A stretch of 64,000 bases of DNA from Escherichia coli (GTDB lineage: Bacteria; Pseudomonadota; Gammaproteobacteria; Enterobacterales; Enterobacteriaceae), in NCBI RefSeq assembly GCF_046105845.1, contig NZ_CP151004.1; one strand, written 5' to 3'. Below, piece by piece: positions 1-13,615 of the stretch. The notes below the pieces were generated by a model. That model saw only the letters and a list, made by a program, of their open reading frames with translations. It was not told the DNA's origin and ran no database searches. A program made the translations under genes and the position numbers. How positions within the stretch are numbered: position 1 is the stretch's first letter; every line of letters starts with the position of its first letter.

Positions 1-1362
1 GTCCGTCACGCGGGTCACGGCGCTGACAATCTCCGCCATTGTTTCCCCGGCGCTTTCGACCAGCGTAGAGCCAACATCCACTTTCCCCACCGAGTCTTCA
101 ATCAGGCTTTTAATTTCACGAGCCGCCTGGGCGCTGCGCTGGGCCAGATTACGCACTTCTCCCGCGACCACCGCAAAACCGCGCCCTTGCTCACCCGCAC
201 GCGCAGCCTCAACCGCGGCGTTCAAAGCCAGAATATTGGTCTGGAAGGCAATGCCGTCAATTACGCTGATAATATCGGCGATTTTCTGCGAACTGGTGGA
301 GATATCGCGCATGGTCTGTACTACGTTATCCACCACTTTGCCGCCGCGTTGCGCCGTTTCAGAAGCACTTAACGCCAGATGGCTGGCCTGACGCGCATTC
401 TCGGCGTTCTGTTTCACCGTTGCGGTCAGTTGCTCCATGCTGGCTGCCGTCTCTTCCAGCGAAGCGGCCTGTTGCTCGGTGCGCGAAGAGAGATCGTTAT
501 TGCCGGTGGCGATTTCGCTGGCACCGCTATAAATGGCATTGGCCCCGTTGCGCACATCACCGACGGTACGCATCAGCTCTCCCTGCATATGGCGCAAACT
601 CTCTGCCAGTTGCCCCATCTCATTAGAGCCATCCACCTCAATCGGTTTCACCAGATCGCCGCCTGCAATATGACGAATGCTGTCAATCAGGCGATTCATT
701 GGCGCTACCAACGAGGCTTTAATACCGAACCAGACGGCGAAGATGACCGCCAGTACGACGATCATCACGCCCACCAGAATCCACATCGCCTGGCTGTAGG
801 AGGCATTATTATCGCTGACGGCGATATCATAGAGCCGATCGTTTTGCTCCATGTAAGCCACATACTGCTTCTCGAAACCGTCCTGATATCCCTGGGTCGG
901 CTGATCAAAGAACTCGTTGATTTTGCCTGCACCTAACAGTTGGATCAGCTCCGCCAGCGCATTGTGATAAATATCGTAATTACGTTTGATCTCTGACGCT
1001 GCGGCGGTGCTCTGACGCGGGTCACGCGGCAACGCTTCGTAATCCGCCCAGTTTTTTTCCGCCTGTTTCAGCGAAATACTGGCACTCTGCATTAGCTCAG
1101 CAACGGTTGAACCGCTACCAATATTATTCTGATCCATCATGTAGCGGATACCCGCGCGGTTGAGGGTGTTACGCGTCTGCAACAACGCAACCCAGCTGCC
1201 ATTCAGCGTGGATTGCTGCTGGCGAATGGTTTGTAAAACAGTGAAATTTTCTTTGTCATTCTTTAAGGCATTAAAGAACAGACCGCCTGATGTCAGTTGT
1301 AAAAGGCCAAAAACGGCCAAAACCAGCAGTAAGCTGGTCACAATTTTGATACGTTTTAACAT
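1..1362 (-). CDS. tsr: Methyl-accepting chemotaxis protein Tsr (serine chemoreceptor); 3' end truncated by the window edge, N-terminal ~454 codons present
   Basis: Reverse-strand translation from the ATG at 1362..1360 reads [27 protein letters not shown]..., continuing through the HAMP and methyl-accepting signalling regions. The ORF runs off the window start, which is why it is absent from the ORF track. Confidence 0.9.
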
Positions 1363-1392
1363 GGTTTCTCTTTCCTGTGGACCGATGCAAGA

Positions 1393-1419
1393 TTTTCGGC
1401 CTGGAAAGGAAAAACTTTA
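1393..1419 (-). promoter_or_regulatory. Putative sigma-28 (FliA) promoter of tsr
   Basis: Minus strand reads TAAAGTTT-N11-GCCGAAAA, against the FliA consensus TAAAGTTT-N11-GCCGATAA, about 30 bp upstream of the tsr start codon. Confidence 0.5.
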
Positions 1420-1591
1420 TAGTCAACGTCATTATCACCGTCGAACATAATTCGTTTTGTTTCATTTTTGTACAAAACTAAGAGCGTCATGAATAAAAAA
1501 ATTAATCTTGTTTATTTATTTCACGCTATTTATCGCAATTTTGCACAATGATGCATCGTATGATGCGCGTTTTAAAGAAAGGATATCTGAT

Positions 1592-2134
1592 ATGTTAAAC
1601 CGTGATTTTGATCATCTATCAACCCTGCTCCATCTTTTTTTTGAGCGTGACGATATTTGCCAAAAGCTTAATATTATTGATCAAAACGAGATCACCGGGT
1701 GGGAAGTTTGGTTCCAGGTGGAGTTTGCTAATATGCTTTGCTCAACAGACCATGAATGGTGGCGTGAACAAACACTATCCTGTGATATGCGCAAAAAGCC
1801 CGAACGCCCCACCCTACGTACAGATTTTTTATTACGCAAAAAAGGCTGGGCACAAGATAGCTATATTGCGCTTGAAATTAAACAGAACAGAGATGCGACA
1901 AGTTGTGTTAAAAATATGATCGCAGACTTAGAGAAAAGCGCCAAAATTAAACGTTCTGAGCTTGATTTGCGTAGTTTCTGGACTTTAGGTATTACCCCGA
2001 TGATCGACAGAGAAAGACTGAACTCTCTCATCGACAGTTATTTAGATGAGAAATTCTATCTTACTAAATCTCGTAAAAAACACGTTTTACTTAAAGAAAT
2101 AAAAAATACACCATATTGCTATATTGTTATTTAA
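1592..2134 (+). CDS. Hypothetical protein (~180 aa), AT-rich orphan ORF inserted between the divergent tsr and btsT genes; possible PD-(D/E)XK-like motif
   Basis: Long ORF in an AT-rich, lysine-rich block with AGGA 5-9 nt upstream of the ATG at 1592. The E...D...ExK spacing (WEVWFQVEF / RTDFLL / ALEIK) is only loosely nuclease-like. Start chosen by RBS; the ORF track start at 1508 is also possible. Confidence 0.45.
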   Translation: MLNRDFDHLSTLLHLFFERDDICQKLNIIDQNEITGWEVWFQVEFANMLCSTDHEWWREQTLSCDMRKKPERPTLRTDFLLRKKGWAQDSYIALEIKQNRDATSCVKNMIADLEKSAKIKRSELDLRSFWTLGITPMIDRERLNSLIDSYLDEKFYLTKSRKKHVLLKEIKNTPYCYIVI

Positions 2135-2242
2135 CATTTATGGCATGAATATAATTTTTAGATGAGTAACACAACTGAGGGCTAAAACTCGCCTTGGTTG
2201 TGATCATCATCACATAAATAGCCTTCATAAACCTTGCTCAAT

Positions 2243-2270
2243 ACCGCTCAACCGCAAAACTGACCGCTTA
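2243..2270 (+). promoter_or_regulatory. Putative BtsR (YehT) LytTR-type response-regulator binding site upstream of btsT: direct repeat ACCGCTCA-N12-ACCGCTTA
   Basis: Direct repeat of the ACC(G/A)CT(C/T)A motif seen in the sequence about 160 bp upstream of the btsT start. Assignment rests on recall of the published YehT motif. Confidence 0.4.
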
Positions 2271-2426
2271 CGTCCCTAAAATAACCACTCAGTTATTTAC
2301 CTTACTTTACGCGCGCGTAACTCTGGCAACATCACTGCAGGATAGCGGTCAATTTACCTCCTCAAACGCAACGCAAACCTAGAACGGCTTCGGCCAACTA
2401 TTAATCAATACATGCCAGGTTTTACT

Positions 2427-4577
2427 ATGGATACTAAAAAGATATTCAAGCACATACCCTGGGTGATTCTCGGAATCATCGGTGCATTCTGCCTCGCGGT
2501 AGTTGCATTACGTCGGGGGGAGCACGTCAGCGCCCTGTGGATCGTGGTCGCCTCTGTGTCGGTGTATCTGGTGGCGTATCGCTACTACAGTCTGTACATC
2601 GCCCAGAAGGTGATGAAACTCGACCCCACGCGCGCGACGCCTGCGGTTATTAACAACGACGGTCTGAACTATGTTCCGACTAACCGTTACGTGTTGTTTG
2701 GTCACCACTTCGCCGCTATCGCCGGTGCTGGTCCGCTGGTTGGTCCGGTTCTCGCCGCGCAGATGGGCTACCTGCCTGGCACGCTGTGGCTGCTGGCGGG
2801 GGTAGTGCTGGCCGGTGCGGTACAGGACTTTATGGTGCTGTTTATCTCCTCTCGCCGTAACGGCGCATCTCTCGGTGAGATGATCAAAGAAGAGATGGGA
2901 CCAGTACCGGGGACTATCGCGCTGTTTGGCTGTTTCTTAATCATGATCATCATCCTCGCCGTCCTGGCGCTGATTGTGGTTAAAGCCCTGGCCGAAAGTC
3001 CGTGGGGTGTCTTCACCGTTTGCTCAACCGTACCGATTGCGCTGTTTATGGGTATCTACATGCGCTTTATCCGTCCGGGGCGTGTGGGTGAAGTCTCTGT
3101 CATTGGTATCGTGCTGCTGGTTGCCTCTATCTACTTCGGTGGCGTGATTGCTCACGATCCGTACTGGGGTCCGGCACTGACCTTTAAAGACACCACCATT
3201 ACCTTCGCGCTGATTGGCTATGCGTTTGTTTCCGCACTGCTGCCGGTGTGGCTGATCCTCGCACCGCGCGACTATCTGGCAACCTTCCTGAAAATCGGCG
3301 TTATCGTCGGCCTGGCGCTGGGTATCGTGGTGCTGAACCCGGAACTGAAAATGCCTGCGATGACCCAGTACATTGACGGTACTGGCCCGCTGTGGAAAGG
3401 CGCTCTGTTCCCGTTCCTGTTCATCACCATCGCCTGTGGTGCGGTATCTGGCTTCCACGCGCTGATCTCTTCCGGTACGACGCCGAAACTGCTGGCTAAC
3501 GAAACCGACGCGCGTTTCATTGGCTACGGCGCAATGCTGATGGAGTCCTTCGTGGCGATTATGGCGCTGGTTGCTGCGTCCATCATCGAACCGGGTCTTT
3601 ACTTCGCGATGAACACCCCGCCTGCTGGCCTTGGCATCACCATGCCTAACCTGCATGAAATGGGTGGCGAGAACGCGCCGATCATCATGGCGCAGCTGAA
3701 AGACGTTACCGCACACGCGGCAGCGACCGTCAGCTCCTGGGGCTTCGTGATTTCGCCAGAGCAGATCCTGCAAACCGCGAAAGACATTGGTGAGCCTTCT
3801 GTCCTGAACCGTGCAGGTGGTGCGCCGACGCTGGCGGTAGGTATCGCTCACGTGTTCCACAAAGTGCTGCCGATGGCTGACATGGGCTTCTGGTATCACT
3901 TCGGTATTCTGTTCGAAGCCCTGTTCATCCTGACCGCGCTGGATGCGGGTACCCGTTCTGGCCGCTTTATGCTGCAAGACCTGCTGGGTAACTTCATCCC
4001 GTTCCTGAAAAAAACCGACTCTCTGGTTGCCGGTATCATCGGTACTGCGGGCTGTGTGGGTCTGTGGGGCTACCTGCTGTATCAGGGCGTGGTCGATCCG
4101 CTGGGCGGCGTTAAGAGTCTGTGGCCGCTGTTCGGTATTTCCAACCAGATGCTGGCAGCCGTAGCGCTGGTACTGGGCACCGTTGTGCTGATTAAGATGA
4201 AGCGCACCCAATACATCTGGGTAACTGTTGTTCCGGCTGTATGGCTGCTTATCTGCACCACCTGGGCGCTGGGTCTGAAACTGTTCAGCACCAACCCGCA
4301 GATGGAAGGCTTCTTCTACATGGCAAGCCAGTACAAAGAGAAGATTGCTAACGGTACTGACCTGACGGCGCAGCAGATTGCCAACATGAACCACATCGTT
4401 GTGAATAACTACACCAACGCAGGTCTGAGTATTCTGTTCCTGATCGTGGTGTACAGCATCATCTTCTACGGTTTCAAAACCTGGCTTGCGGTGCGTAACA
4501 GCGACAAACGTACTGACAAAGAAACACCGTACGTTCCAATCCCGGAAGGCGGCGTGAAGATCTCTTCGCACCACTAA
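2427..4577 (+). CDS. btsT: Pyruvate/H+ symporter BtsT (YjiY), CstA family transporter, 716 aa
   Basis: Translation MDTKKIFKHIPWVILGIIGAF... is a multi-TM CstA-family protein. Start set at the internal ATG (2427) matching the canonical N-terminus; the ORF track starts 15 nt upstream. Confidence 0.93.
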   Translation: MDTKKIFKHIPWVILGIIGAFCLAVVALRRGEHVSALWIVVASVSVYLVAYRYYSLYIAQKVMKLDPTRATPAVINNDGLNYVPTNRYVLFGHHFAAIAGAGPLVGPVLAAQMGYLPGTLWLLAGVVLAGAVQDFMVLFISSRRNGASLGEMIKEEMGPVPGTIALFGCFLIMIIILAVLALIVVKALAESPWGVFTVCSTVPIALFMGIYMRFIRPGRVGEVSVIGIVLLVASIYFGGVIAHDPYWGPALTFKDTTITFALIGYAFVSALLPVWLILAPRDYLATFLKIGVIVGLALGIVVLNPELKMPAMTQYIDGTGPLWKGALFPFLFITIACGAVSGFHALISSGTTPKLLANETDARFIGYGAMLMESFVAIMALVAASIIEPGLYFAMNTPPAGLGITMPNLHEMGGENAPIIMAQLKDVTAHAAATVSSWGFVISPEQILQTAKDIGEPSVLNRAGGAPTLAVGIAHVFHKVLPMADMGFWYHFGILFEALFILTALDAGTRSGRFMLQDLLGNFIPFLKKTDSLVAGIIGTAGCVGLWGYLLYQGVVDPLGGVKSLWPLFGISNQMLAAVALVLGTVVLIKMKRTQYIWVTVVPAVWLLICTTWALGLKLFSTNPQMEGFFYMASQYKEKIANGTDLTAQQIANMNHIVVNNYTNAGLSILFLIVVYSIIFYGFKTWLAVRNSDKRTDKETPYVPIPEGGVKISSHH

Positions 4578-4585
4578 CCGTGTTT

Positions 4586-4613
4586 AGCCCCGCTTCGGCG
4601 GGGCTTTGTTCTT
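4586..4613 (+). terminator. Rho-independent terminator downstream of btsT
   Basis: GC-rich hairpin AGCCCCGC-TTCG-GCGGGGCT followed by TTGTTCTT. Confidence 0.6.
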
Positions 4614-4626
4614 ATCAGAGTGAACT

Positions 4627-4830
4627 ATGTTTGGTAACTTAGGACAGGCAAAAAAATATCTCGGCCAGGCGGCGAAGATGTTGATTGGCATTCCAGACTA
4701 CGACAACTACGTCGAGCATATGAAGACCAACCATCCCGACAAGCCGTACATGAGCTATGAAGAATTCTTCCGCGAACGCCAGAACGCGCGCTACGGCGGC
4801 GATGGTAAAGGCGGTATGCGCTGTTGTTAA
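4627..4830 (+). CDS. yjiX: Small DUF466-family protein YjiX (67 aa)
   Basis: [70 protein letters not shown] directly downstream of btsT, a conserved pairing with cstA-like genes. Confidence 0.85.
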
Positions 4831-4840
4831 TGGAGAGAGC

Positions 4841-5797
4841 ATGAACCCGATTGCAGTTACCCTACTCACCGGTTTTTTAGGCGCAGGAAAAACCACCCTG
4901 CTGCGCCATATTCTTAACGAACAGCACGGCTACAAGATTGCCGTAATTGAAAACGAATTTGGCGAAGTCTCTGTTGATGATCAACTGATTGGCGACCGCG
5001 CCACGCAGATCAAAACGCTGACCAACGGCTGCATCTGTTGTTCGCGCTCCAACGAGCTGGAGGACGCGCTACTCGACCTGCTGGACAATCTCGACAAGGG
5101 CAATATTCAGTTCGATCGTCTGGTTATTGAATGCACCGGCATGGCCGATCCCGGCCCGATTATTCAGACCTTTTTCTCCCATGAAGTTTTATGCCAGCGC
5201 TACCTGCTGGACGGGGTGATTGCACTGGTGGATGCGGTACATGCCGATGAGCAGATGAACCAGTTCACCATCGCCCAGTCACAGGTTGGCTACGCCGACC
5301 GCATTCTGCTGACCAAAACCGACGTCGCAGGTGAAGCAGAAAAACTGCGTGAACGCCTGGCGCGCATCAACGCCCGTGCACCGGTCTACACCGTTACCCA
5401 CGGCGATATCGACCTGGGCCTGCTATTCAACACCAACGGTTTTATGCTGGAAGAGAACGTGGTCAGCACCAAACCGCGTTTCCACTTTATCGCGGATAAA
5501 CAAAACGATATTTCGTCGATTGTGGTGGAACTGGATTACCCGGTAGATATCAGCGAAGTTTCTCGGGTGATGGAAAACCTGCTGCTGGAATCGGCAGATA
5601 AACTGCTGCGTTACAAAGGGATGCTGTGGATTGACGGCGAACCTAACCGCCTGCTGTTCCAGGGCGTTCAGCGCCTCTACAGCGCCGACTGGGACCGCCC
5701 GTGGGGCGATGAAAAACCGCATAGCACGATGGTGTTTATCGGGATTCAGCTGCCGGAGGAAGAGATTCGGGCAGCGTTTGCGGGGTTGAGGAAGTAA
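4841..5797 (+). CDS. yjiA: COG0523 / G3E-family P-loop GTPase (putative zinc metallochaperone) YjiA
   Basis: GFLGAGKTTL Walker A, CICCS motif; start at the ATG at 4841 preceded by a GGAGAG RBS. The ORF track extension to 4757 overlaps yjiX and is probably not translated. Confidence 0.9.
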   Translation: MNPIAVTLLTGFLGAGKTTLLRHILNEQHGYKIAVIENEFGEVSVDDQLIGDRATQIKTLTNGCICCSRSNELEDALLDLLDNLDKGNIQFDRLVIECTGMADPGPIIQTFFSHEVLCQRYLLDGVIALVDAVHADEQMNQFTIAQSQVGYADRILLTKTDVAGEAEKLRERLARINARAPVYTVTHGDIDLGLLFNTNGFMLEENVVSTKPRFHFIADKQNDISSIVVELDYPVDISEVSRVMENLLLESADKLLRYKGMLWIDGEPNRLLFQGVQRLYSADWDRPWGDEKPHSTMVFIGIQLPEEEIRAAFAGLRK

Positions 5798-5805
5798 GGG
5801 GTTAT

Positions 5806-5835
5806 GGGCCGGATAAGGCGCAGCCGCATCTGGCC
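5806..5835. repeat. REP (repetitive extragenic palindromic) element
   Basis: GGGCCGGATAAGGCGCAGCCGCATCTGGCC, an imperfect palindrome of REP type between the convergent yjiA and mrr genes. Confidence 0.5.
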
Positions 5836-5842
5836 TGATATT

Positions 5843-6757
5843 TCACTCAAAATAGTCCATATCCAGTTTCGGCACCTTCAACAAACGTGAAGAAACCCCT
5901 ACTTCGTTTTCGATCATTAAGTGCACCAGGCGTTCCCCATCAACCAGCACCATACCCTCGACGGATTGGGCAAAGTCACGCGCCTGAGAAGTAAACCCAG
6001 AAGTGGTAATAAACACCCCACGTTTCGCTTTTTGCCCAGCCAGTGCGCCGTAAAATGCCTGTAATTCTGGCCTGCCTACAGTATTCTGCCAACGTTTTGC
6101 CTGAACATAAACTTTCTCCAGGCCAAGTTTATCAAGCGATATCACACCATCGATGCCACCATCTCCAGTACCGCCAACACGCTGCAAATCATCACGGTGG
6201 CCGCCATACCCCAGGCGATGCAAAACATCCAGAACAATGACTTCAAAGCGCGAAGGAGAAACCTGCAATAAGTTTTCCAGAACCTCATCAGCCACCGCAT
6301 CACGAAGCTCTTTTAGCGCCTGATCTAACCGATCGTCCGGGCTGCTCTTTGCAAGTTCTTCATGATCGGGAGAGTCGGCTTTCGGATCTAAATCGACGGC
6401 ATCCGGCCGTGACTTAAGTTTGACATTCACAAAAGCGAAGGCCAGATGGTTCGTCTCCTGCTCCGTCATTGGCTGGGGATGAGACGCAACCCAGTCAAAA
6501 CCCGCAGGAGTCAGGCACCATTTGCCACGCGACAAACTTTGCGACAACCCGGCACGTTTTAAACGGTCATGCGCCCAGCCTGCACGATTTTTATAAACAA
6601 GTTGTCCGCTGGTAATGACTTTCGCTCGCTGGCTGTCATCCAGTCCTAATGCATCCGCGGCAGCCTCATGAACATCACGCGCGGCTGCACCTTCCGGTTT
6701 TGTCGCCAGATAACGCAGAACAGGTTCAATAAATTTGTCATAGGTTGGAACCGTCAT
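5843..6757 (-). CDS. mrr: Type IV methylation-dependent restriction endonuclease Mrr (304 aa)
   Basis: Translation MTVPTYDKFIEPVLRYLATKPEGAAARDVHEAAADALGLDDSQRAK..., with an N-terminal winged-helix and C-terminal Mrr catalytic region; divergent from hsdR. Confidence 0.9.
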   Translation of the reverse strand: MTVPTYDKFIEPVLRYLATKPEGAAARDVHEAAADALGLDDSQRAKVITSGQLVYKNRAGWAHDRLKRAGLSQSLSRGKWCLTPAGFDWVASHPQPMTEQETNHLAFAFVNVKLKSRPDAVDLDPKADSPDHEELAKSSPDDRLDQALKELRDAVADEVLENLLQVSPSRFEVIVLDVLHRLGYGGHRDDLQRVGGTGDGGIDGVISLDKLGLEKVYVQAKRWQNTVGRPELQAFYGALAGQKAKRGVFITTSGFTSQARDFAQSVEGMVLVDGERLVHLMIENEVGVSSRLLKVPKLDMDYFE

Positions 6758-6944
6758 AGTACATCCTTGCAGAATCAGGTAGATGTTTTTCGGCTACTAT
6801 AACACTACAAAAATAGACGAACACGTTAGAAATGAGTCAGTTGCTGTGACTCCGGTCATTGCCCGGAAAGGTACAGAAAGCTAAGATAGGGCGTTATGGG
6901 CCTTAAATATTTGGACAGGCCCACACAGCAATGGATTAATAACA

Positions 6945-9900
6945 ATGATGAATAAATCCAACTTCGAATTCCTGAAGGGCGTCAACGACTTCACTTATGC
7001 CATCGCCTGTGCGGCGGAAAATAACTACCCGGATGATCCCAACACGACGCTGATTAAAATGCGTATGTTTGGCGAAGCCACAGCGAAACATCTTGGTATG
7101 TTACTCAACATCCCCCCTTGTGAGAATCAACACGATCTCCTGCGCGAACTCGGCAAAATCGCCTTCGTTGATGACAACATTCTCTCTGTATTCCACAAAT
7201 TACGCCGCATTGGTAACCAGGCGGTGCACGAATATCATAACGATCTCGACGATGCCCAGATGTGCCTGCGGCTAGGCTTCCGTCTGGCTGTCTGGTACTA
7301 CCGTCTGGTCACCAAAGATTATGACTTCCCGGTGCCGGTATTTGTGTTGCCGGAACGTGGCGAAAACCTCTATCACCAGGAAGTGCTGACGCTAAAACAA
7401 CAGCTTGAACAGCAGGCGCGAGAAAAAGCGCAGACTCAGGCAGAAGTCGAAGCGCAACAGCAGAAGCTGGTTGCCCTGAACGGCTATATCGCCATTCTGG
7501 AAGGCAAACAGCAGGAAACAGAAGCGCAAACCCAGGCTCGCCTTGCGGCGCTGGAAGCACAGCTTGCCGAGAAGAACGCGGAACTGGCAAAACAGACCGA
7601 ACAGGAACGTAAGGCTTACCACAAAGAAATTACCGATCAGGCCATCAAGCGCGCACTCAACCTTAGCGAAGAAGAGAGCCGCTTCCTGATTGACGCGCAA
7701 CTGCGTAAAGCAGGCTGGCAGGCCGATAGCAAAACCCTGCGCTTCTCCAAAGGCGCACGCCCGGAACCCGGCGTCAATAAAGCCATTGCCGAATGGCCGA
7801 CCGGGAAAGATGAAACGGGTAATCAGGGCTTTGCGGATTATGTGCTGTTTGTCGGCCTCAAGCCCATCGCGGTGGTAGAGGCGAAACGTAAAAATATCGA
7901 CGTTCCCGGCAAGCTCAATGAGTCGTATCGCTACAGCAAATGCTTCGATAATGGCTTCCTGCGGGAAACCTTGCTTGAGCATTACTCGCCGGATGAAGTG
8001 CATGAAGCGGTGCCGGAGTATGAAACCAGCTGGCAGGACACCAGCGGCCAACAACGGTTTAAAATCCCCTTCTGCTACTCGACCAACGGGCGCGAATACC
8101 GCGCAGCAATGAAGACTAAAAGTGGCATCTGGTATCGCGACGTGCGTGATACCCGCAATATGTCGAAAGCCTTACCCGAGTGGCATCGCCCGGAAGAGCT
8201 GCTGGAAATGCTCGGCAGCGAACCGCAAAAACAGAATCAGTGGTTTGCCGATAACCCTGGCATGAGCGAGCTGGGCCTGCGTTATTATCAGGAAGATGCT
8301 GTCCGCGCGGTGGAAAAGGCAATCGTCAAGGGTCAACAAGAGATCCTGCTGGCGATGGCGACCGGTACCGGTAAAACCCGTACCGCAATTGCCATGATGT
8401 TCCGCCTGATCCAGTCCCAGCGTTTTAAACGCATTCTCTTCCTTGTCGATCGCCGTTCTCTTGGCGAGCAGGCGCTGGGGGCGTTTGAAGATACGCGTAT
8501 TAACGGCGACACCTTCAACAGCATTTTCGACATTAAAGGTCTGACGGATAAATTCCCGGAAGACAGCACCAAAATTCACGTTGCCACCGTACAGTCGCTG
8601 GTGAAACGCACCCTGCAATCAGATGAACCGATGCCGGTGGCCCGTTACGACTGTATCGTCGTCGATGAAGCGCATCGCGGCTATATTCTCGATAAAGAGC
8701 AGACCGAAGGCGAGCTGCAATTCCGCAGCCAGCTGGATTACGTCTCTGCCTACCGTCGCATTCTCGATCACTTCGATGCGGTAAAAATCGCCCTCACCGC
8801 CACCCCGGCGCTGCATACGGTACAGATTTTCGGCGAGCCGGTTTACCGTTATACCTACCGTACCGCGGTTATCGACGGGTTTCTGATCGACCAGGATCCG
8901 CCTATTCAGATCATCACCCGCAACGCCCAGGAGGGGGTTTATCTCGCCAAAGGCGAGCAGGTTGAGCGCATCAGCCCACAGGGGGAAGTGATCAACGACA
9001 CCCTGGAAGACGATCAGGATTTTGAGGTCGCCGACTTTAACCGTGGCCTGGTGATCCCGGCGTTTAACCGCGCCGTCTGTAACGAACTCACCAACTACCT
9101 TGATCCGACCGGGTCACAAAAAACGCTGGTCTTCTGCGTCACCAATGCCCATGCCGATATGGTGGTGGAAGAGTTGCGTACCGCGTTCAAGAAAAAGTAT
9201 CCGCAACTGGAGCACGACGCGATCATCAAGATCACCGGTGATGCCGATAAAGACGCGCGCAAAGTGCAGACCATGATCACCCGCTTCAATAAAGAGCGGC
9301 TGCCCAATATCGTGGTAACCGTCGACCTGCTGACGACCGGCGTCGATATTCCGTCGATCTGTAACATCGTGTTCCTGCGTAAAGTACGCAGCCGTATTCT
9401 GTACGAGCAGATGAAAGGCCGCGCCACGCGCTTATGCCCGGACGTGAATAAAACCAGCTTTAAGATTTTCGACTGTGTCGATATCTACAGCACGCTGGAG
9501 AGCGTCGACACCATGCGTCCGGTGGTGGTGCGTCCGAAGGTGGAACTGCAAACGCTGGTCAATGAAATTACCGATTCAGAAACCTATAAAATCACCGAAG
9601 CGGACGGCCGTAGCTTTGCCGAGCACAGCCATGAACAACTGGTGGCGAAGCTCCAGCGCATCATCGGCCTGGCCACGTTTAACCGTGATCGCAGCGAAAC
9701 GATAGATAAACAGGTGCGTCGTCTGGATGAGCTATGCCAGGACGTGGCGGGGGTGAGCTTTAACGGCTTCGCCTCGCGCCTGCGGGAAAAAGGACCGCAC
9801 TGGAGCGCCGAAGTCTTTAACAAACTGCCTGGCTTTATCGCCCGCCTGGAAAAGCTGAAAACCGACATCAATAGCCTGAATGATGCGCCGATCTTCCTCG

Positions 9901-10457
9901 ATATTGACGATGAAGTGGTGAGCGTAAAATCGCTGTACGGTGATTACGACACGCCGCAGGATTTCCTCGAAGCCTTTGACTCGCTGGTGCAACGTTCCCC
10001 GAACGCGCAACCGGCATTGCAGGCGGTGATCAATCGCCCGCGCGATCTCACCCGTAAAGGGCTGGTTGAACTCCAGGAGTGGTTTGACCGCCAGCACTTT
10101 GAGGAATCTTCCCTGCGCAAAGCGTGGAAAGAGACGCGCAATGAAGATATCGCTGCCCGGCTGATTGGACATATTCGCCGCGCTGCGGTGGGCGATGCGC
10201 TGAAACCGTTTGAGGAACGTGTCGATCACGCGCTGACGCGCATTAAGGGCGAAAACGACTGGAGCAGCGAGCAATTAAGCTGGCTCGATCGTTTAGCGCA
10301 GGCGCTGAAAGAGAAAGTGGTGCTCGACGACGATGTCTTCAAAACCGGCAACTTCCACCGTCGCGGCGGGAAGGCGATGCTGCAAAGAACCTTTGACGAT
10401 AATCTCGACAACCTGCTTGATAAATTCAGCGATTATATCTGGGACGAGCTGGCCTGA
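6945..10457 (+). CDS. hsdR: Type I restriction enzyme R subunit HsdR (EcoKI family, type IA), 1170 aa
   Basis: N-terminus MMNKSNFEFLKGVNDFTYAIACAAENNYPDDP...; PD-(D/E)XK nuclease region followed by SF2 helicase motifs (LLAMATGTGKTRTAIA Walker A, VVDEAH DEAH box). Confidence 0.95.
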   Translation: MMNKSNFEFLKGVNDFTYAIACAAENNYPDDPNTTLIKMRMFGEATAKHLGMLLNIPPCENQHDLLRELGKIAFVDDNILSVFHKLRRIGNQAVHEYHNDLDDAQMCLRLGFRLAVWYYRLVTKDYDFPVPVFVLPERGENLYHQEVLTLKQQLEQQAREKAQTQAEVEAQQQKLVALNGYIAILEGKQQETEAQTQARLAALEAQLAEKNAELAKQTEQERKAYHKEITDQAIKRALNLSEEESRFLIDAQLRKAGWQADSKTLRFSKGARPEPGVNKAIAEWPTGKDETGNQGFADYVLFVGLKPIAVVEAKRKNIDVPGKLNESYRYSKCFDNGFLRETLLEHYSPDEVHEAVPEYETSWQDTSGQQRFKIPFCYSTNGREYRAAMKTKSGIWYRDVRDTRNMSKALPEWHRPEELLEMLGSEPQKQNQWFADNPGMSELGLRYYQEDAVRAVEKAIVKGQQEILLAMATGTGKTRTAIAMMFRLIQSQRFKRILFLVDRRSLGEQALGAFEDTRINGDTFNSIFDIKGLTDKFPEDSTKIHVATVQSLVKRTLQSDEPMPVARYDCIVVDEAHRGYILDKEQTEGELQFRSQLDYVSAYRRILDHFDAVKIALTATPALHTVQIFGEPVYRYTYRTAVIDGFLIDQDPPIQIITRNAQEGVYLAKGEQVERISPQGEVINDTLEDDQDFEVADFNRGLVIPAFNRAVCNELTNYLDPTGSQKTLVFCVTNAHADMVVEELRTAFKKKYPQLEHDAIIKITGDADKDARKVQTMITRFNKERLPNIVVTVDLLTTGVDIPSICNIVFLRKVRSRILYEQMKGRATRLCPDVNKTSFKIFDCVDIYSTLESVDTMRPVVVRPKVELQTLVNEITDSETYKITEADGRSFAEHSHEQLVAKLQRIIGLATFNRDRSETIDKQVRRLDELCQDVAGVSFNGFASRLREKGPHWSAEVFNKLPGFIARLEKLKTDINSLNDAPIFLDIDDEVVSVKSLYGDYDTPQDFLEAFDSLVQRSPNAQPALQAVINRPRDLTRKGLVELQEWFDRQHFEESSLRKAWKETRNEDIAARLIGHIRRAAVGDALKPFEERVDHALTRIKGENDWSSEQLSWLDRLAQALKEKVVLDDDVFKTGNFHRRGGKAMLQRTFDDNLDNLLDKFSDYIWDELA

Positions 10458-10658
10458 CACGTATACACTTCATCCTTCAGGCTACCTCTGCGTTGGCTGC
10501 GCTCGTTCACCCCGGTCACGTACTTCTGTACGCTCCCGGGGATTCACTCACTTGCCGCCTTGATGCAACCTGAATGATTTTGTGTATATTACCCTCGGCA
10601 ATTTCTTTTTCTGCGGCCCCAAACAATGCGGGCCGCTGCTTAATTTACGGAACTCACA

Positions 10659-12248
10659 ATGAACAATAACGATCTGGTCGCGAAGCTGTGGAAGCTGTGC
10701 GACAACCTGCGCGATGGCGGCGTTTCCTATCAAAACTACGTCAATGAACTCGCCTCGCTGCTGTTTTTGAAAATGTGTAAAGAGACCGGACAGGAAGCGG
10801 AGTACCTGCCGGTAGGCTACCGCTGGGATGATCTGAAATCCCGTATCGGTCAGGAGCAGTTGCAGTTCTACCGTAACCTGCTGGTACATCTGGGCGCCGA
10901 CAATCAAAAGCTGGTGCAGGCGGTGTTCCAGAACGTCAACACCACCATTACCCAGCCGAAACAGTTGACCGAGCTGGTCAGCAATATGGATTCACTGGAC
11001 TGGTACAACGGTGCGCACGGTAAGTCGCGCGATGACTTCGGCGATATGTACGAAGGGCTGCTGCAGAAGAACGCCAACGAAACCAAGTCTGGCGCGGGCC
11101 AGTACTTCACCCCGCGTCCGCTGATTAAAACCATTATTCATCTGCTGAAACCGCAGCCGCGTGAAGTGGTGCAGGATCCGGCAGCAGGTACGGCGGGCTT
11201 TTTGATTGAAGCCGACCGCTACGTTAAGTCGCAAACCAATGATCTGGACGACCTTGATGGCGACACGCAGGATTTCCAGATCCACCGCGCCTTTATCGGC
11301 CTCGAACTGGTGCCCGGCACCCGTCGTCTGGCGCTGATGAACTGCCTGCTACACGATATTGAAGGCAACCTCGACCACGGCGGCGCAATCCGTCTGGGCA
11401 ACACCCTGGGTAGCGACGGTGAAAATCTGCCGAAGGCGCATATTGTCGCCACTAACCCGCCGTTTGGCAGCGCCGCAGGCACCAACATTACCCGCACCTT
11501 TGTCCACCCGACCAGCAACAAACAGTTGTGCTTTATGCAGCATATTATCGAAACGCTGCATCCCGGCGGTCGTGCGGCGGTAGTGGTGCCAGATAACGTG
11601 CTGTTTGAAGGCGGCAAAGGCACCGACATCCGTCGTGACCTGATGGATAAGTGTCATCTGCATACCATCCTGCGTCTGCCGACCGGTATTTTTTACGCTC
11701 AGGGCGTGAAAACTAACGTGCTGTTCTTTACCAAAGGGACGGTGGCGAACCCGCATCAGGATAAGAACTGCACCGATGATGTGTGGGTGTACGACCTGCG
11801 TACCAATATGCCGAGCTTCGGCAAGCGCACGCCGTTTACCGACGAGCATTTGCAGCCGTTTGAGCGCGTGTATGGCGAAGATCCCCACGGTTTAAGCCCG
11901 CGCACTGAAGGTGAATGGAGTTTTAACGCCGAAGAGACGGAAGTTGCCGACAGCGAAGAGAACAAAAACACCGATCAGCATCTGGCTACCAGCCGCTGGC
12001 GCAAGTTCAGCCGCGAGTGGATCCGCACCGCGAAATCCGATTCGCTGGATATCTCCTGGCTGAAAGATAAAGACAGTATTGATGCCGACAACCTGCCGGA
12101 GCCGGATGTATTAGCGGCAGAAGCGATGGGTGAACTGGTGCAGGCGCTGGGCGAACTGGATGCGCTGATGCGTGAACTGGGGGCGAGCGATGAGGCCGAT
12201 TTGCAGCGTCAGTTGCTGGAAGAAGCATTTGGTGGGGTGAAGGAATGA
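10659..12248 (+). CDS. hsdM: Type I restriction-modification N6-adenine DNA methyltransferase subunit HsdM (529 aa)
   Basis: MNNNDLVAKLWKLCDNLRDGGVSYQNYVNELASLLFLKM...; contains the NPPF catalytic motif (ATNPPFGSA) and an AdoMet-binding region. Confidence 0.95.
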   Translation: MNNNDLVAKLWKLCDNLRDGGVSYQNYVNELASLLFLKMCKETGQEAEYLPVGYRWDDLKSRIGQEQLQFYRNLLVHLGADNQKLVQAVFQNVNTTITQPKQLTELVSNMDSLDWYNGAHGKSRDDFGDMYEGLLQKNANETKSGAGQYFTPRPLIKTIIHLLKPQPREVVQDPAAGTAGFLIEADRYVKSQTNDLDDLDGDTQDFQIHRAFIGLELVPGTRRLALMNCLLHDIEGNLDHGGAIRLGNTLGSDGENLPKAHIVATNPPFGSAAGTNITRTFVHPTSNKQLCFMQHIIETLHPGGRAAVVVPDNVLFEGGKGTDIRRDLMDKCHLHTILRLPTGIFYAQGVKTNVLFFTKGTVANPHQDKNCTDDVWVYDLRTNMPSFGKRTPFTDEHLQPFERVYGEDPHGLSPRTEGEWSFNAEETEVADSEENKNTDQHLATSRWRKFSREWIRTAKSDSLDISWLKDKDSIDADNLPEPDVLAAEAMGELVQALGELDALMRELGASDEADLQRQLLEEAFGGVKE

Positions 12249-13615
12249 GTGCGGAGAAATTGCCGGAGGGGTGGGTTGAGTGTGAATTATCCGAACTCGG
12301 TAACATTGTTACAGGGAAAACTCCCAGTACCAAGGAGCCTTCCAATTTTGGAGGCAGCATTCCTTTCATTAAACCAGGCGATCTTGATCTCGGTGGCTAT
12401 ATCATGAATACCGCCGATACTCTGACGGAGAAAGGGTTATCTCTTGTCCCCACTCTTCCTGCCAATTCAGTCGTTGTGACGTGTATTGGAAATTTAGGAA
12501 AAGTTGGAATTACCGCTAAAAAATCAGCATCTAATCAACAAATAAATGCATTGATCCCGTCAGAAAAGCTAAATGTAAAATTTGTTTATTACCAAATTTT
12601 AACATTAAAACCATGGTTAGAGTCTCAATCAGCAGCTACTACAATTGCGATTGTGAACAAGAGCAAATTTTCTCAGGCACCATTTAAATTCCCGTCGCTT
12701 GCCGAACAAAAAATCATCACTGAAAAACTCGATACGCTGCTGGCGCAGGTAGACAGCACCAAAGCACGTCTTGAGCAAATCCCACAAATCCTGAATCGTT
12801 TTCGTCAGGCTATTCTAGCTAATGCTGTGGAAGGAAAATTGACCGACGAATGGCGAGCCGGAAAATGTTATATTACAGAAATCAAAAAAATATCTGATAT
12901 TATTCAGAATGCTCAAGTCGGATTAGTTCGTTCAGCTTCAGATCAAAGCGAAATATGCACTCAAAAAATGAGAACGCCTTATATAAAAATGAATAACATT
13001 CACAATGTTCTCGGAACAAATTTAGAAAAACTCGCTTATGTCAACTGTGATAGCTATGAACTGGAAAAATATAGATTAAAAAATGGAGATTGGCTCTTTA
13101 ATACACGAAATAGTTATGAGTTAGTTGGTAAATCCTGTGTCTGGAATGGATGTAGCAATGCTGTATATAATAATAATATATTAAGAGTTAGACTAAAAGA
13201 AAACTACAATTCTGTTTTTTTAGATTATTGGTTTCACTCGTTCTATGGAGTGAGCATGCTTAATAGTATTAAATCCGCAACAACAAATGTTGCTGCGATA
13301 TATCAGAAAGAACTCTTAAGTAAAAGTGTTCCATTCCCCCCCCTTCCCGAACAAGCCGAGATTGTTCGCCGCGTCGAACAACTCTTCGCCTACGCCGACA
13401 CCATAGAAAAACAGGTCAACAACGCCTTAGCCCGCGTTAACAACCTGACGCAATCCATCCTGGCAAAAGCGTTCCGTGGTGAACTCACCGCCCAGTGGCG
13501 GGCCGAAAACCCGGATTTAATCAGCGGAGAAAACAGCGCCGCCGCGTTGCTGGAAAAAATCAAAGCTGAACGCGCAGCCAGCGGGGGTAAAAAAGCCTCG
13601 CGTAAAAAATCCTGA
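12245..13615 (+). CDS. hsdS: Type I restriction-modification specificity subunit HsdS (456 aa) with divergent AT-rich target-recognition domains
   Basis: ATGA start/stop overlap with hsdM. The conserved central (LAEQKIITEKLDTLLAQVDSTKARLEQIPQIL) and C-terminal (LPEQAEIVRRVEQLFAYADTIEKQVNNALARVNNLTQSILAKAFRGELTAQWR) regions frame two variable segments of visibly lower GC content. Confidence 0.9.
   Translation: MSAEKLPEGWVECELSELGNIVTGKTPSTKEPSNFGGSIPFIKPGDLDLGGYIMNTADTLTEKGLSLVPTLPANSVVVTCIGNLGKVGITAKKSASNQQINALIPSEKLNVKFVYYQILTLKPWLESQSAATTIAIVNKSKFSQAPFKFPSLAEQKIITEKLDTLLAQVDSTKARLEQIPQILNRFRQAILANAVEGKLTDEWRAGKCYITEIKKISDIIQNAQVGLVRSASDQSEICTQKMRTPYIKMNNIHNVLGTNLEKLAYVNCDSYELEKYRLKNGDWLFNTRNSYELVGKSCVWNGCSNAVYNNNILRVRLKENYNSVFLDYWFHSFYGVSMLNSIKSATTNVAAIYQKELLSKSVPFPPLPEQAEIVRRVEQLFAYADTIEKQVNNALARVNNLTQSILAKAFRGELTAQWRAENPDLISGENSAAALLEKIKAERAASGGKKASRKKS

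What the first reader, a model, noticed from the sequence alone, without database searches (positions are those of the whole stretch)
1440..2160. AT-rich orphan ORF inserted between the divergent tsr and btsT promoters, with a loose PD-(D/E)XK-like motif
The tsr–btsT divergent spacer is about 1.06 kb here and contains a ~180-aa lysine-rich ORF (1592..2134) in a strongly AT-rich block, unlike the neighbouring core genes. The protein shows an E...D...ExK spacing (EVWFQVEF / RTDFLL / ALEIK) that could be a small restriction-endonuclease-fold nuclease, though the match is weak. An 8-bp sequence CATGAATA occurs at both edges of the block (1487 and 2150), which may be a recombination scar or chance. 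I do not recall a gene here in K-12, but that is from memory.
Basis: inference. Interest (0 to 1): 0.5.

Follow-up and report, generated by a model that had tools for sequence, protein, structure and literature searches.

The report
Solitary small nuclease gene beside tsr
The extra 180-codon gene between tsr and btsT is a real, well-conserved accessory gene, found in about 7% of E. coli (nearly all O157:H7), that encodes a small restriction-enzyme-like nuclease of an unstudied family; what it cuts is unknown.

Summary
An AT-rich ORF (1592..2134, 180 aa) lies in a 1,064-bp tsr–btsT spacer. It belongs to an 823-bp haplotype block (1421..2243) that K-12 replaces with 136 unrelated bp.

Among 5,426 complete E. 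coli genomes, three mutually exclusive states fill this slot:
- the ORF: 362 genomes (6.7%), of which 360 carry the O157-type allele (ECs_5314) and 2 the window-type allele
- the K-12 short spacer: 2,753
- large islands such as hpa: 2,261

The ORF is a selected gene. Between the two E. coli alleles dN/dS is 0.03, while dS is 0.68 and the flanks differ by only 1–2%.

No methylase, antitoxin or other partner recurs in 48 loci. The same tsr–ORF–btsT synteny occurs in Citrobacter and Phytobacter. In Pseudomonas prophages the gene sits in a moron position, and some copies lie in defence islands.

The CATGAATA "scar" is chance.

Verdict: an uncharacterised solitary PD-(D/E)XK nuclease, plausibly anti-foreign-DNA. 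Moderate interest.

The parts
1592..2134 (+). CDS of a 180-aa (21.6 kDa) solitary PD-(D/E)XK-fold protein. It is the orthologue of O157:H7 Sakai ECs_5314 and is identical in protein to WP_001558494.1 of strain GF43. Candidate catalytic residues are E38, E44, D78, E95 and K97; D112 is also near-invariant.
   Evidence: ORF and translation. RefSeq annotation as a hypothetical protein. dN/dS 0.028 against the O157 allele. Family conservation. Model and fold matches.
1421..2243 (.). 823-bp haplotype-specific block, 36% GC. K-12-type genomes replace it with 136 unrelated bp, and other strains with multi-kb islands.
   Evidence: Alignments A1 and A6. blastn of the K-12 spacer against the block finds no homology inside it. 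Census of the three haplotypes.
1421..1591 (+). AT-rich (31% GC) 5' region of the ORF. It is essentially unalignable between the two E. coli alleles except for the last ~25 bp, which hold the ribosome-binding site (AAAGGA, 1578-1583). No consensus sigma-70 promoter was found.
   Evidence: (megablast alignment to the O157 allele starts only at query base 150).
1393..1419 (-). tsr sigma-28-type promoter: TAAAGTTT (reverse complement of 1412-1419), N11, GCCGAAAA (reverse complement of 1393-1400). It is conserved in every haplotype and in Citrobacter and Phytobacter, and it marks the left edge of the block.
   Evidence: Read from the sequence. Conservation in A1 and A4. The consensus TAAAGTTT-N11-GCCGATAA is from my own knowledge.
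2199..2214 (+). CRP-like palindrome TGTGATCATCATCACA upstream of btsT. All three haplotypes and Citrobacter/Phytobacter keep it (TGTGAT-N4-ATCACA) although the surrounding bases differ.
   Evidence: Alignments A5 and A6. The assignment to CRP is from my own knowledge of the yjiY promoter.
2243..2270 (+). Direct repeat ACCGCTCA ... ACCGCTTA, resembling BtsR/YehT boxes of the btsT promoter. It marks the right edge of the block; all haplotypes converge from here on.
   Evidence: Alignments A1, A5 and A6. PMC5552118 states that a conserved BtsR motif exists in yjiY promoters. The motif sequence itself is from my own knowledge.
1..1362 (-). tsr, the serine chemoreceptor gene (its 5' 1,362 bp). Left core flank.
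   Evidence: Annotation of GF43, O157 and K-12-like records.
2427..4577 (+). btsT (yjiY), the pyruvate/H+ symporter gene. Right core flank.

Best explanation
The ORF is a functional accessory gene for a minimal, stand-alone PD-(D/E)XK (restriction-endonuclease-fold) nuclease. It belongs to an uncharacterised proteobacterial family, here called the ECs_5314 family.

Inferred mechanism: the carboxylates D78 and E95, with E38/E44 on the first core helix, hold Mg2+. K97 positions the attacking water for phosphodiester hydrolysis, most likely of DNA. The RKK patch after D78 binds the backbone. A 180-aa enzyme of this fold would be expected to act as a homodimer, as the 194-aa restriction enzyme OkrAI does.

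The gene travels alone, with no methyltransferase, antitoxin or other partner. In E. coli it is one of three alternative fillings of a recombination hot spot bounded by the tsr sigma-28 promoter and the btsT CRP/BtsR sites. That slot lies three genes from the mrr-hsdRMS-mcrBC immigration control region.

Its most likely role is attack on incoming foreign DNA, that is, a solitary anti-phage or exclusion nuclease that is harmless to the host. It could be harmless because its target is a feature of foreign DNA, or because it is kept silent until needed.

Shown here: it is a real gene under purifying selection; the fold; the conserved active-site residues; it is solitary; it is accessory and patchy; its position in the locus.

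Inferred: nuclease activity, DNA as substrate, dimer, defence role.

Confidence by step: real selected gene about 0.95; PD-(D/E)XK nuclease about 0.85; defence or exclusion role about 0.35. The overall figure of 0.45 refers to the whole statement.
For: Real gene:
- 47 synonymous against 8 non-synonymous differences between the window and O157 alleles. dN/dS is 0.028 and dS 0.68, while tsr and btsT are 98-99% identical.
- The 180-aa length is kept down to 22% identity.

Nuclease:
- E38, E44, D78, E95, K97 and D112 are kept in 141-143 of 144 full-length members.
- The AlphaFold model has pLDDT 85.9 and pTM 0.84, with the alpha-beta-beta-beta-alpha-beta core. D78 lies on strand 2 and E95-x-K97 on strand 3.
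- All top Foldseek PDB hits are PD-(D/E)XK nucleases.
- Sub-threshold Pfam TnsA-like_N hits in 8 of 27 members.

Solitary:
- No neighbour family recurs across 48 loci beyond within-genus synteny.
- Neighbours are mostly unrelated housekeeping genes.

Accessory and patchy:
- 362 of 5,426 E. coli genomes; 51 loci among representatives of 100,044 species.
- About 8 of 48 copies are truncated or frameshifted.
- GC is 36-38%, well below the host's.

Defence-like company:
- In Pseudomonas prophages the gene is on the opposite strand between the holins and the small terminase, a moron position.
- It sits beside JukA and HsdR in an integrase island of Serratia fonticola, beside a SIR2 defence protein, beside an OLD/AriA-like ATPase, and beside AbiEi and a WYL-domain protein.
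- In E. coli it is 3.7 kb (three genes) from mrr and the immigration control region.
Against: - No match to any PADLOC defence model apart from one spurious weak hit. No NCBIfam match.
- Most neighbourhoods are housekeeping genes, and the defence association was not tested statistically.
- No homologue in 50,697 sequenced phages or 72,556 plasmids.
- No consensus promoter or terminator, so the gene may be silent.
- No recognisable modification-reading or DNA-recognition domain is attached to the core. How a solitary nuclease would spare the host is therefore unexplained.
- Individual Foldseek E-values against PDB are weak (about 1e-2).
Confidence: 0.45

Rival explanations
1. It is a structure-specific DNA repair or recombination nuclease working for the host, for example a Holliday-junction resolvase, or a mismatch or nick endonuclease in the manner of Hjc, RecU, Vsr or MutH.
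For: It has the minimal size and single-domain architecture typical of Hjc-like or Vsr-like enzymes. Hjc, NucS and the AF1548 protein are among the fold hits. It needs no immunity partner. Many copies sit between housekeeping genes.
Against: Its distribution is very patchy: 6.7% of E. coli, and 51 loci among representatives of 100,044 species. Pseudogenes are frequent. It is AT-rich and looks horizontally acquired. It occupies a prophage moron position. None of this is expected of a repair function.
Confidence: 0.15
2. It is a selfish, free-standing homing-type endonuclease gene. It would cut 'empty' alleles of its own locus and be copied in by recombinational repair.
For: A single ORF occupies exactly the same intergenic slot in Escherichia, Citrobacter and Phytobacter. 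ORF-bearing and ORF-less alleles differ sharply right at the block edges. The two alleles are deeply diverged while their flanks are near-identical, which fits repeated import. Decayed copies occur. PD-(D/E)XK homing endonucleases have a precedent in I-Ssp6803I (my own knowledge).
Against: The empty site is not a clean deletion: it holds 136 unrelated bp. The same slot also takes unrelated islands such as hpa, so it is a general hot spot. The gene lies at many different sites in other taxa. Frequency in E. coli is low and largely clonal (O157/O55). dN/dS of 0.03 points to long-term selection on the protein.
Confidence: 0.07
3. It is a toxin, either an abortive-infection or addiction-type nuclease. 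It would be held in check by an unrecognised RNA or by transcriptional silencing rather than by a protein antitoxin.
For: It is a solitary nuclease with intact catalytic residues and no methylase. The AT-rich setting lacks a consensus promoter, which fits H-NS-type silencing. TA-rich neighbourhoods occur: BrnTA near the locus in Citrobacter and GF43.
Against: No small ORF is conserved next to it. The upstream 150 bp is unconserved between the alleles, so it holds no conserved antisense or antitoxin RNA. No Rfam hit.
Confidence: 0.12
4. It is a non-catalytic or non-functional ORF: either a chance open frame in AT-rich DNA, or a nuclease-fold protein reused as a regulator, as IraD is.
Against: dN/dS is 0.028. 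There are about 320 related clusters of the same length. The acidic and lysine residues are near-invariant. A good ribosome-binding site is present.
Confidence: 0.04

Closest known systems
Small Type IIP restriction endonucleases of the PD-(D/E)XK fold (R.SwaI, BglI, OkrAI/BamHI/BglII/BstYI)
   Different: There is no cognate methyltransferase in any of 48 loci. Sequence similarity is undetectable: the PDB profile search found nothing. Specificity is unknown.
TnsA-like endonuclease N-terminal domain (Pfam PF08722)
   Same: It is the only Pfam family giving any signal: E 0.1 for the window protein, and 8 of 27 members at E<=0.1 with a best value of 5.4e-3. The aligned stretch covers the D78...ExK region. 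One UniRef entry for a Pseudomonas member uses this name.
   Different: Every hit is below threshold. No Tn7-like partners (TnsB, TnsC) are nearby, and there is no TnsA C-terminal domain.
Solitary modification-dependent (Type IV) restriction enzymes such as Mrr or McrBC of the neighbouring immigration control region
   Same: It is a stand-alone nuclease without a methylase, encoded 3.7 kb from mrr-hsdRMS-mcrBC in the same window. It shares the PD-(D/E)XK catalytic fold.
   Different: A profile comparison with the window's own Mrr and McrC shows no relation. There is no recognisable modification-reading domain and no GTPase partner. The gene lies outside the yjiA-yjiN anchors that define the immigration control region (PMC12707154).
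Wolbachia CinB and CBASS NucC nuclease domains
   Different: CinB is a 600-700-aa two-domain toxin with a cognate CinA. NucC is activated by cyclic trinucleotide within a CBASS operon. No such partners or extra domains are present here.

Membership tests
PD-(D/E)XK nuclease superfamily | Alpha-beta-beta-beta-alpha-beta core fold | tested here: met
PD-(D/E)XK nuclease superfamily | Conserved D ... (D/E)-x-K on strands 2 and 3, with an acidic residue on helix 1 | tested here: met
   Among 144 full-length members: D78 143, E95 141, K97 142, E38 141, E44 143.
PD-(D/E)XK nuclease superfamily | Metal-dependent phosphodiesterase activity | not testable with these tools
   Needs purified protein.
Pfam PF08722 Tn7_TnsA-like_N | Significant match to the family HMM | tested here: not met
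   E = 0.1 for the window protein. The best of 27 members is 5.4e-3, and none reaches E<=0.001.
Pfam PF08722 Tn7_TnsA-like_N | Association with Tn7-type transposition genes | tested here: not met
   No recurrent neighbour in 48 loci.
Type II restriction-modification system | Adjacent cognate DNA methyltransferase | tested here: not met
   The E. coli neighbours are tsr and btsT. No methyltransferase family recurs in 48 loci.
Type IV (modification-dependent) restriction enzyme | Solitary nuclease joined to a modified-base-recognition domain, or homology to Mrr, McrA, McrBC or GmrSD | tested here: inconclusive
   Solitary: yes. No homology to Mrr or McrC. Only two N-terminal helices and a C-terminal hairpin lie outside the core. 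Specificity for modified DNA cannot be tested here.
Known anti-phage defence systems (PADLOC-DB v2) | Match to a defence-protein HMM | tested here: not met
   Only a weak hit to 'oMTase' (E 2.4e-4, residues 108-172) for the window protein, and none for three other members. Judged spurious.
Toxin-antitoxin module | Conserved adjacent antitoxin gene or RNA | tested here: not met
   No conserved neighbouring ORF. The upstream region is unconserved between alleles. No Rfam hit.
Free-standing homing endonuclease gene | Same insertion point in different genomes, with a clean empty target site that the enzyme cleaves | tested here: inconclusive
   The slot is the same in three genera. However, the empty allele holds 136 unrelated bp, the slot also accepts other islands, and other taxa use other sites. 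Cleavage cannot be tested here.
Mobile element (IS, transposon or integrative island) | Terminal repeats, target-site duplication, or a transposase or integrase | tested here: not met
   No meaningful direct or inverted repeats at 1421 or 2243. CATGAATA is at chance level. The block holds no recombinase gene.

The most novel reading that the evidence does not exclude
The gene is a free-standing PD-(D/E)XK homing-type endonuclease that propagates between bacterial chromosomes. It would cut ORF-less alleles of an intergenic slot between core genes and be copied in by repair. This would explain three things: single-gene occupancy of exactly the same tsr-btsT slot in Escherichia, Citrobacter and Phytobacter; the sharp haplotype edges; and two alleles with dS 0.68 embedded in flanks that differ by 1-2%. 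A less exotic novel reading is a new single-gene anti-phage nuclease that needs no methylase. I put that at about 0.3.
Probability: 0.07. Interest if true: 0.7.

Novelty: new member of a known kind. Interest (0 to 1): 0.35.

Why it matters
The gene is annotated only as 'hypothetical protein', yet the O157-type allele accounts for 360 of the 362 carrier genomes, and the sampled carriers are mostly O157:H7 and O55:H7. It defines a compact nuclease family of about 320 clusters that has never been studied.

If it restricts phages or incoming DNA without a methylase, it would add a very small single-gene system to the defence repertoire, one that lies beside the classical E. coli immigration control region. 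It would also raise the question of how a bare restriction-fold nuclease tells self from non-self.

The locus is also a clean natural example of a three-state recombination hot spot: short spacer, nuclease gene, or catabolic island. Its edges are set by the regulatory sites of the flanking core genes.

Tried and rejected
1. CATGAATA as a recombination scar: rejected. It is at chance frequency, is not at the block edges, and is not conserved in the O157 allele.
2. The longer TTG-start ORF (1508..2134, 208 aa): rejected. Family N-termini align at the ATG at 1592, which has a ribosome-binding site.
3. The K-12 136-bp spacer as a deletion remnant of the ORF: no homology found.
4. A conserved partner gene (methylase, antitoxin or ATPase): none in 48 loci.
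5. NCBIfam: no hit. Pfam: only a sub-threshold TnsA-like_N signal. PDB sequence profile search: only a spurious ribosomal protein at E 1.2. PHROGs: nothing at or below E 0.1.
6. PADLOC 'orphan methyltransferase' hit: dismissed. It is a 65-residue stretch, appears in the window protein only, and the protein has no methyltransferase fold.
7. Relation to the window's Mrr and McrC by hhalign: none.
8. Carriage on phages or plasmids: no tblastn hit in INPHARED or PLSDB. Only 8 predicted-prophage contigs in IMG/VR.
9. Structured RNA, promoter or terminator in the spacer: no Rfam hit and no consensus sites.
11. A first genome contigs attempt with the most diverse alignment failed because it lacked a conserved peptide. 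It was repeated with alignment A2.

Full report
**What is in the sequence**

The window begins inside tsr, on the minus strand with its start codon at 1362. btsT starts at 2427 on the plus strand, followed by yjiX and yjiA. The divergent spacer is therefore 1,064 bp.

The spacer holds one substantial ORF, 1592..2134. It has an ATG start, encodes 180 aa, and has an AAAGGA ribosome-binding site 8 nt upstream. GC falls to 31-36% over 1421-2198, against 54-62% in the flanking genes. RefSeq annotates the same ORF as 'hypothetical protein' in strain GF43, and in O157:H7 Sakai as ECs_5314.

The 8-mer CATGAATA lies at 1488 and 2144. It occurs 3 times in the window against 2.5 expected by chance. It is one of 15 direct repeats of similar length in this AT-rich kilobase. 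It is not at the block edges, and the left copy is missing from the O157 allele. It is chance.

**The locus is a three-state hot spot**

I aligned the window with an O157 genome and a K-12-like genome.

- The first 58 bp upstream of tsr (1363-1420) are identical in all three. They hold a textbook sigma-28 promoter: TAAAGTTT-N11-GCCGAAAA on the tsr strand.
- The last 183 bp before btsT (2244-2426) are also shared.
- Between these, the window has 823 bp where K-12 has 136 bp with no detectable homology.
- The right edge is the ACCGCTCA...ACCGCTTA direct repeat that I recognise as the BtsR/YehT boxes.
- A CRP-like palindrome (2199-2214) is kept in every haplotype even though the bases around it differ.

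A census of 5,426 complete E. coli genomes gives three states:

| State of the tsr-btsT slot | Genomes |
|---|---|
| ORF block | 362 (6.7%) |
| K-12 136-bp filler | 2,753 |
| Third junction type, bordering large islands | 2,261 |

The ORF block is always a single chromosomal copy. The third junction type borders large islands: the hpa 4-hydroxyphenylacetate cluster in E. coli W, and an N-acyl-D-amino-acid deacylase/deaminase island in strain P19_598. Together the three states cover 99% of genomes.

The block has no terminal repeats, target duplication or recombinase. 'Alternative haplotype of a recombination hot spot' therefore describes it better than 'insertion'.

**Two deep alleles under strong constraint**

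Of the 362 carriers, 360 have the O157-type allele. The sampled carriers are mostly O157:H7 and O55:H7, with some other strains. Only two (GF43 and N3) carry the window-type allele, at 99.4% identity. Neither is identical to the window.

The two alleles differ at 55 of 543 coding positions: 47 synonymous and 8 non-synonymous. This gives dS 0.68, dN 0.019 and dN/dS 0.028. The adjacent tsr and btsT are 98-99% identical. The 150 bp upstream of the ORF cannot be aligned by megablast, which is what neutral divergence at that depth predicts.

The protein has therefore been under strong purifying selection for a long time. At least one allele must have been imported from a divergent lineage by recombination through the conserved flanks.

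**The family**

A word-index search found 39 relatives, almost all exactly 180 aa. They come from Citrobacter, Enterobacter and Serratia (73-80% identity) and from Pseudomonas and metagenomes (38-46%). An exhaustive profile search found 322 clusters at 50% identity with E<=1e-3. Nearly all are 175-195-aa single-domain proteins.

Among 144 full-length members, conservation is as follows:

| Residue | Members keeping it (of 144) |
|---|---|
| E38 | 141 |
| W40 | 142 |
| Q42 | 137 |
| E44 | 143 |
| E59 | 140 |
| D78 | 143 |
| E95 | 141 |
| K97 | 142 |
| D112 | 142 |

Database searches gave little:
- NCBIfam has no model for the family.
- Pfam gives only sub-threshold TnsA-like_N signals, in 8 of 27 members.
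- PADLOC and PHROGs give nothing credible.
- A profile search of PDB sequences finds nothing.

**Structure**

An AlphaFold2 model built on the family alignment has mean pLDDT 85.9 and pTM 0.84.

- Two N-terminal helices come first.
- The canonical core follows: helix (E38, E44), strand, strand (D78), strand (E95-x-K97), helix (D112), strand.
- A helix and a small C-terminal hairpin complete the protein.

In AFDB50 the close matches (TM 0.8-0.92) are uncharacterised family members. A few are labelled 'PD-(D/E)XK nuclease superfamily' or 'restriction endonuclease' by automatic annotation.

Membership of the superfamily is met on fold and motif. Catalysis itself is untested.

**Context elsewhere**

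A scan of one genome per species (100,044 species) returned 51 loci. They are in Gamma- and Betaproteobacteria and in Campylobacterota.

Four Citrobacter genomes and Phytobacter have the gene in the same tsr-ORF-cstA/btsT slot, with the same sigma-28, CRP and BtsR landmarks. Other taxa have it at unrelated sites. Clustering all neighbouring ORFs within 4.5 kb in 48 loci found no family that recurs beyond within-genus synteny. So there is no methyltransferase, antitoxin or ATPase partner.

Neighbours are mostly housekeeping genes: fuculokinase, AcnD, citramalate synthase and sensor kinases. Several loci do have defence company:
- a Serratia fonticola integrase island with JukA and a Type I HsdR
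- a SIR2 defence protein
- an OLD/AriA-like ATPase
- AbiEi with a WYL-domain protein

Roughly 8 of the 48 copies are truncated or frameshifted.

No homologue exists in 50,697 sequenced phages or 72,556 plasmids. Eight IMG/VR contigs do carry 41-46%-identical copies. I checked two of them, L071 and L074. In L074 the gene lies on the opposite strand between the holin/lysis genes and the small terminase. In L071 it lies divergently next to the HNH, terminase and portal genes. Most of the other contigs have the same ORF layout. This is the classical moron position of temperate phages.

In the window itself, the gene is three genes (3.7 kb) from mrr-hsdRMS-symE-mcrBC. It lies outside the yjiA-yjiN anchors that define the immigration control region (PMC12707154).

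**Interpretation**

Well supported: the ORF is a real, selected, accessory gene. It encodes a minimal, solitary restriction-endonuclease-fold protein with an intact catalytic constellation.

Inferred: it hydrolyses DNA in a metal-dependent way, probably as a dimer.

Its biological role is open. The case for an anti-foreign-DNA (defence or exclusion) nuclease rests on these points:
- patchy, horizontally mobile distribution
- low GC
- frequent decay
- the prophage moron position
- occasional residence in defence islands
- proximity to the immigration control region

I rate this the most likely role, at roughly one in three.

Rivals are a structure-specific repair nuclease (0.15), a silenced toxin (0.12), a homing-type selfish gene (0.07) and a non-catalytic or non-functional ORF (0.04). 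The unsolved point for any nuclease reading is how a partnerless enzyme spares the host chromosome.

**Novelty and score**

The gene is already annotated as hypothetical, and the superfamily is well known. The specific family is uncharacterised, and I found no literature on it. I class it as a new member of a known kind, of moderate interest (0.35). It is a tidy candidate for a single-gene defence screen and a clear example of a promoter-bounded three-state hot spot. It is not a surprise to a specialist.

Noticed in passing
window 1363-2426; L016 (E. coli W), L017 (strain P19_598): The tsr-btsT spacer is a three-state hot spot in E. coli: the K-12 136-bp filler (2,753 genomes), the nuclease ORF (362), and an island-type junction (2,261). 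The island type borders the hpa catabolic cluster or an N-acyl-D-amino-acid deacylase/deaminase island. Each state has its own version of the CRP-site segment.
   Followed up: yes
window 1592-2134 vs L002 1892-2434: The two E. coli alleles of the ORF have dS 0.68, while tsr and btsT on either side differ by only 1-2%. Divergence is uneven along the ORF: 2-11 differences per 60 nt, and lowest near the 3' end. This suggests a mosaic or imported origin, and the donor lineage is unknown.
   Followed up: partly
window 5798-26973: This is the immigration control region: mrr, hsdR, hsdM, hsdS, symE, mcrB, mcrC, a 2,114-aa DEAD/DEAH helicase and yjiT (1,112 aa). The best full-length matches in complete genomes are only about 97.9-98.5% identical. 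GF43, which shares the rare ORF allele, has entirely different content here: BrnA/BrnT remnant, Fic, DUF1524/DUF262 (GmrSD-like) and another Type I system.
   Followed up: partly
L071, L073-L078 (IMG/VR); L028 (Pseudomonas japonica): Homologues at 41-46% identity sit in Pseudomonas-type lambdoid prophages. In L074 the gene lies on the opposite strand between the holin/lysis genes and the small terminase. In L071 an HNH endonuclease and a phrog_513 'transposase' lie between it and the terminase.
   Followed up: partly
P0067 (295 aa, metagenomic representative): One family member is fused, or mis-called as fused, to about 100 N-terminal residues that look like an IS200/IS605-type (Y1, RAYT-like) transposase fragment. 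This was judged by eye only and not tested.
   Followed up: no
L006 (Serratia fonticola CP133586.1) 669-12543: This is an integrase-bearing island carrying the nuclease homologue, three unannotated ORFs, a JukA homologue and a Type I HsdR. In another S. fonticola lineage (L008-L011) the homologue sits alone between a TRAP transporter (dctPQM) and an AsnC-type regulator.
   Followed up: partly
window 1300-2500: The scan found no sigma-70-like promoter (0 against 3.5 expected in shuffles) and no intrinsic terminator between the ORF stop and the btsT promoter. The ORF may therefore be poorly expressed, and any transcript could read into btsT.
   Followed up: no
L004 10368-10944 (Citrobacter portucalensis); L070 5831-6182 (GF43): A BrnT/BrnA toxin-antitoxin pair lies directly after yjiA in Citrobacter. 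In E. coli GF43 an intact BrnA and a truncated BrnT occupy the same position, at the edge of the immigration control region.
   Followed up: no
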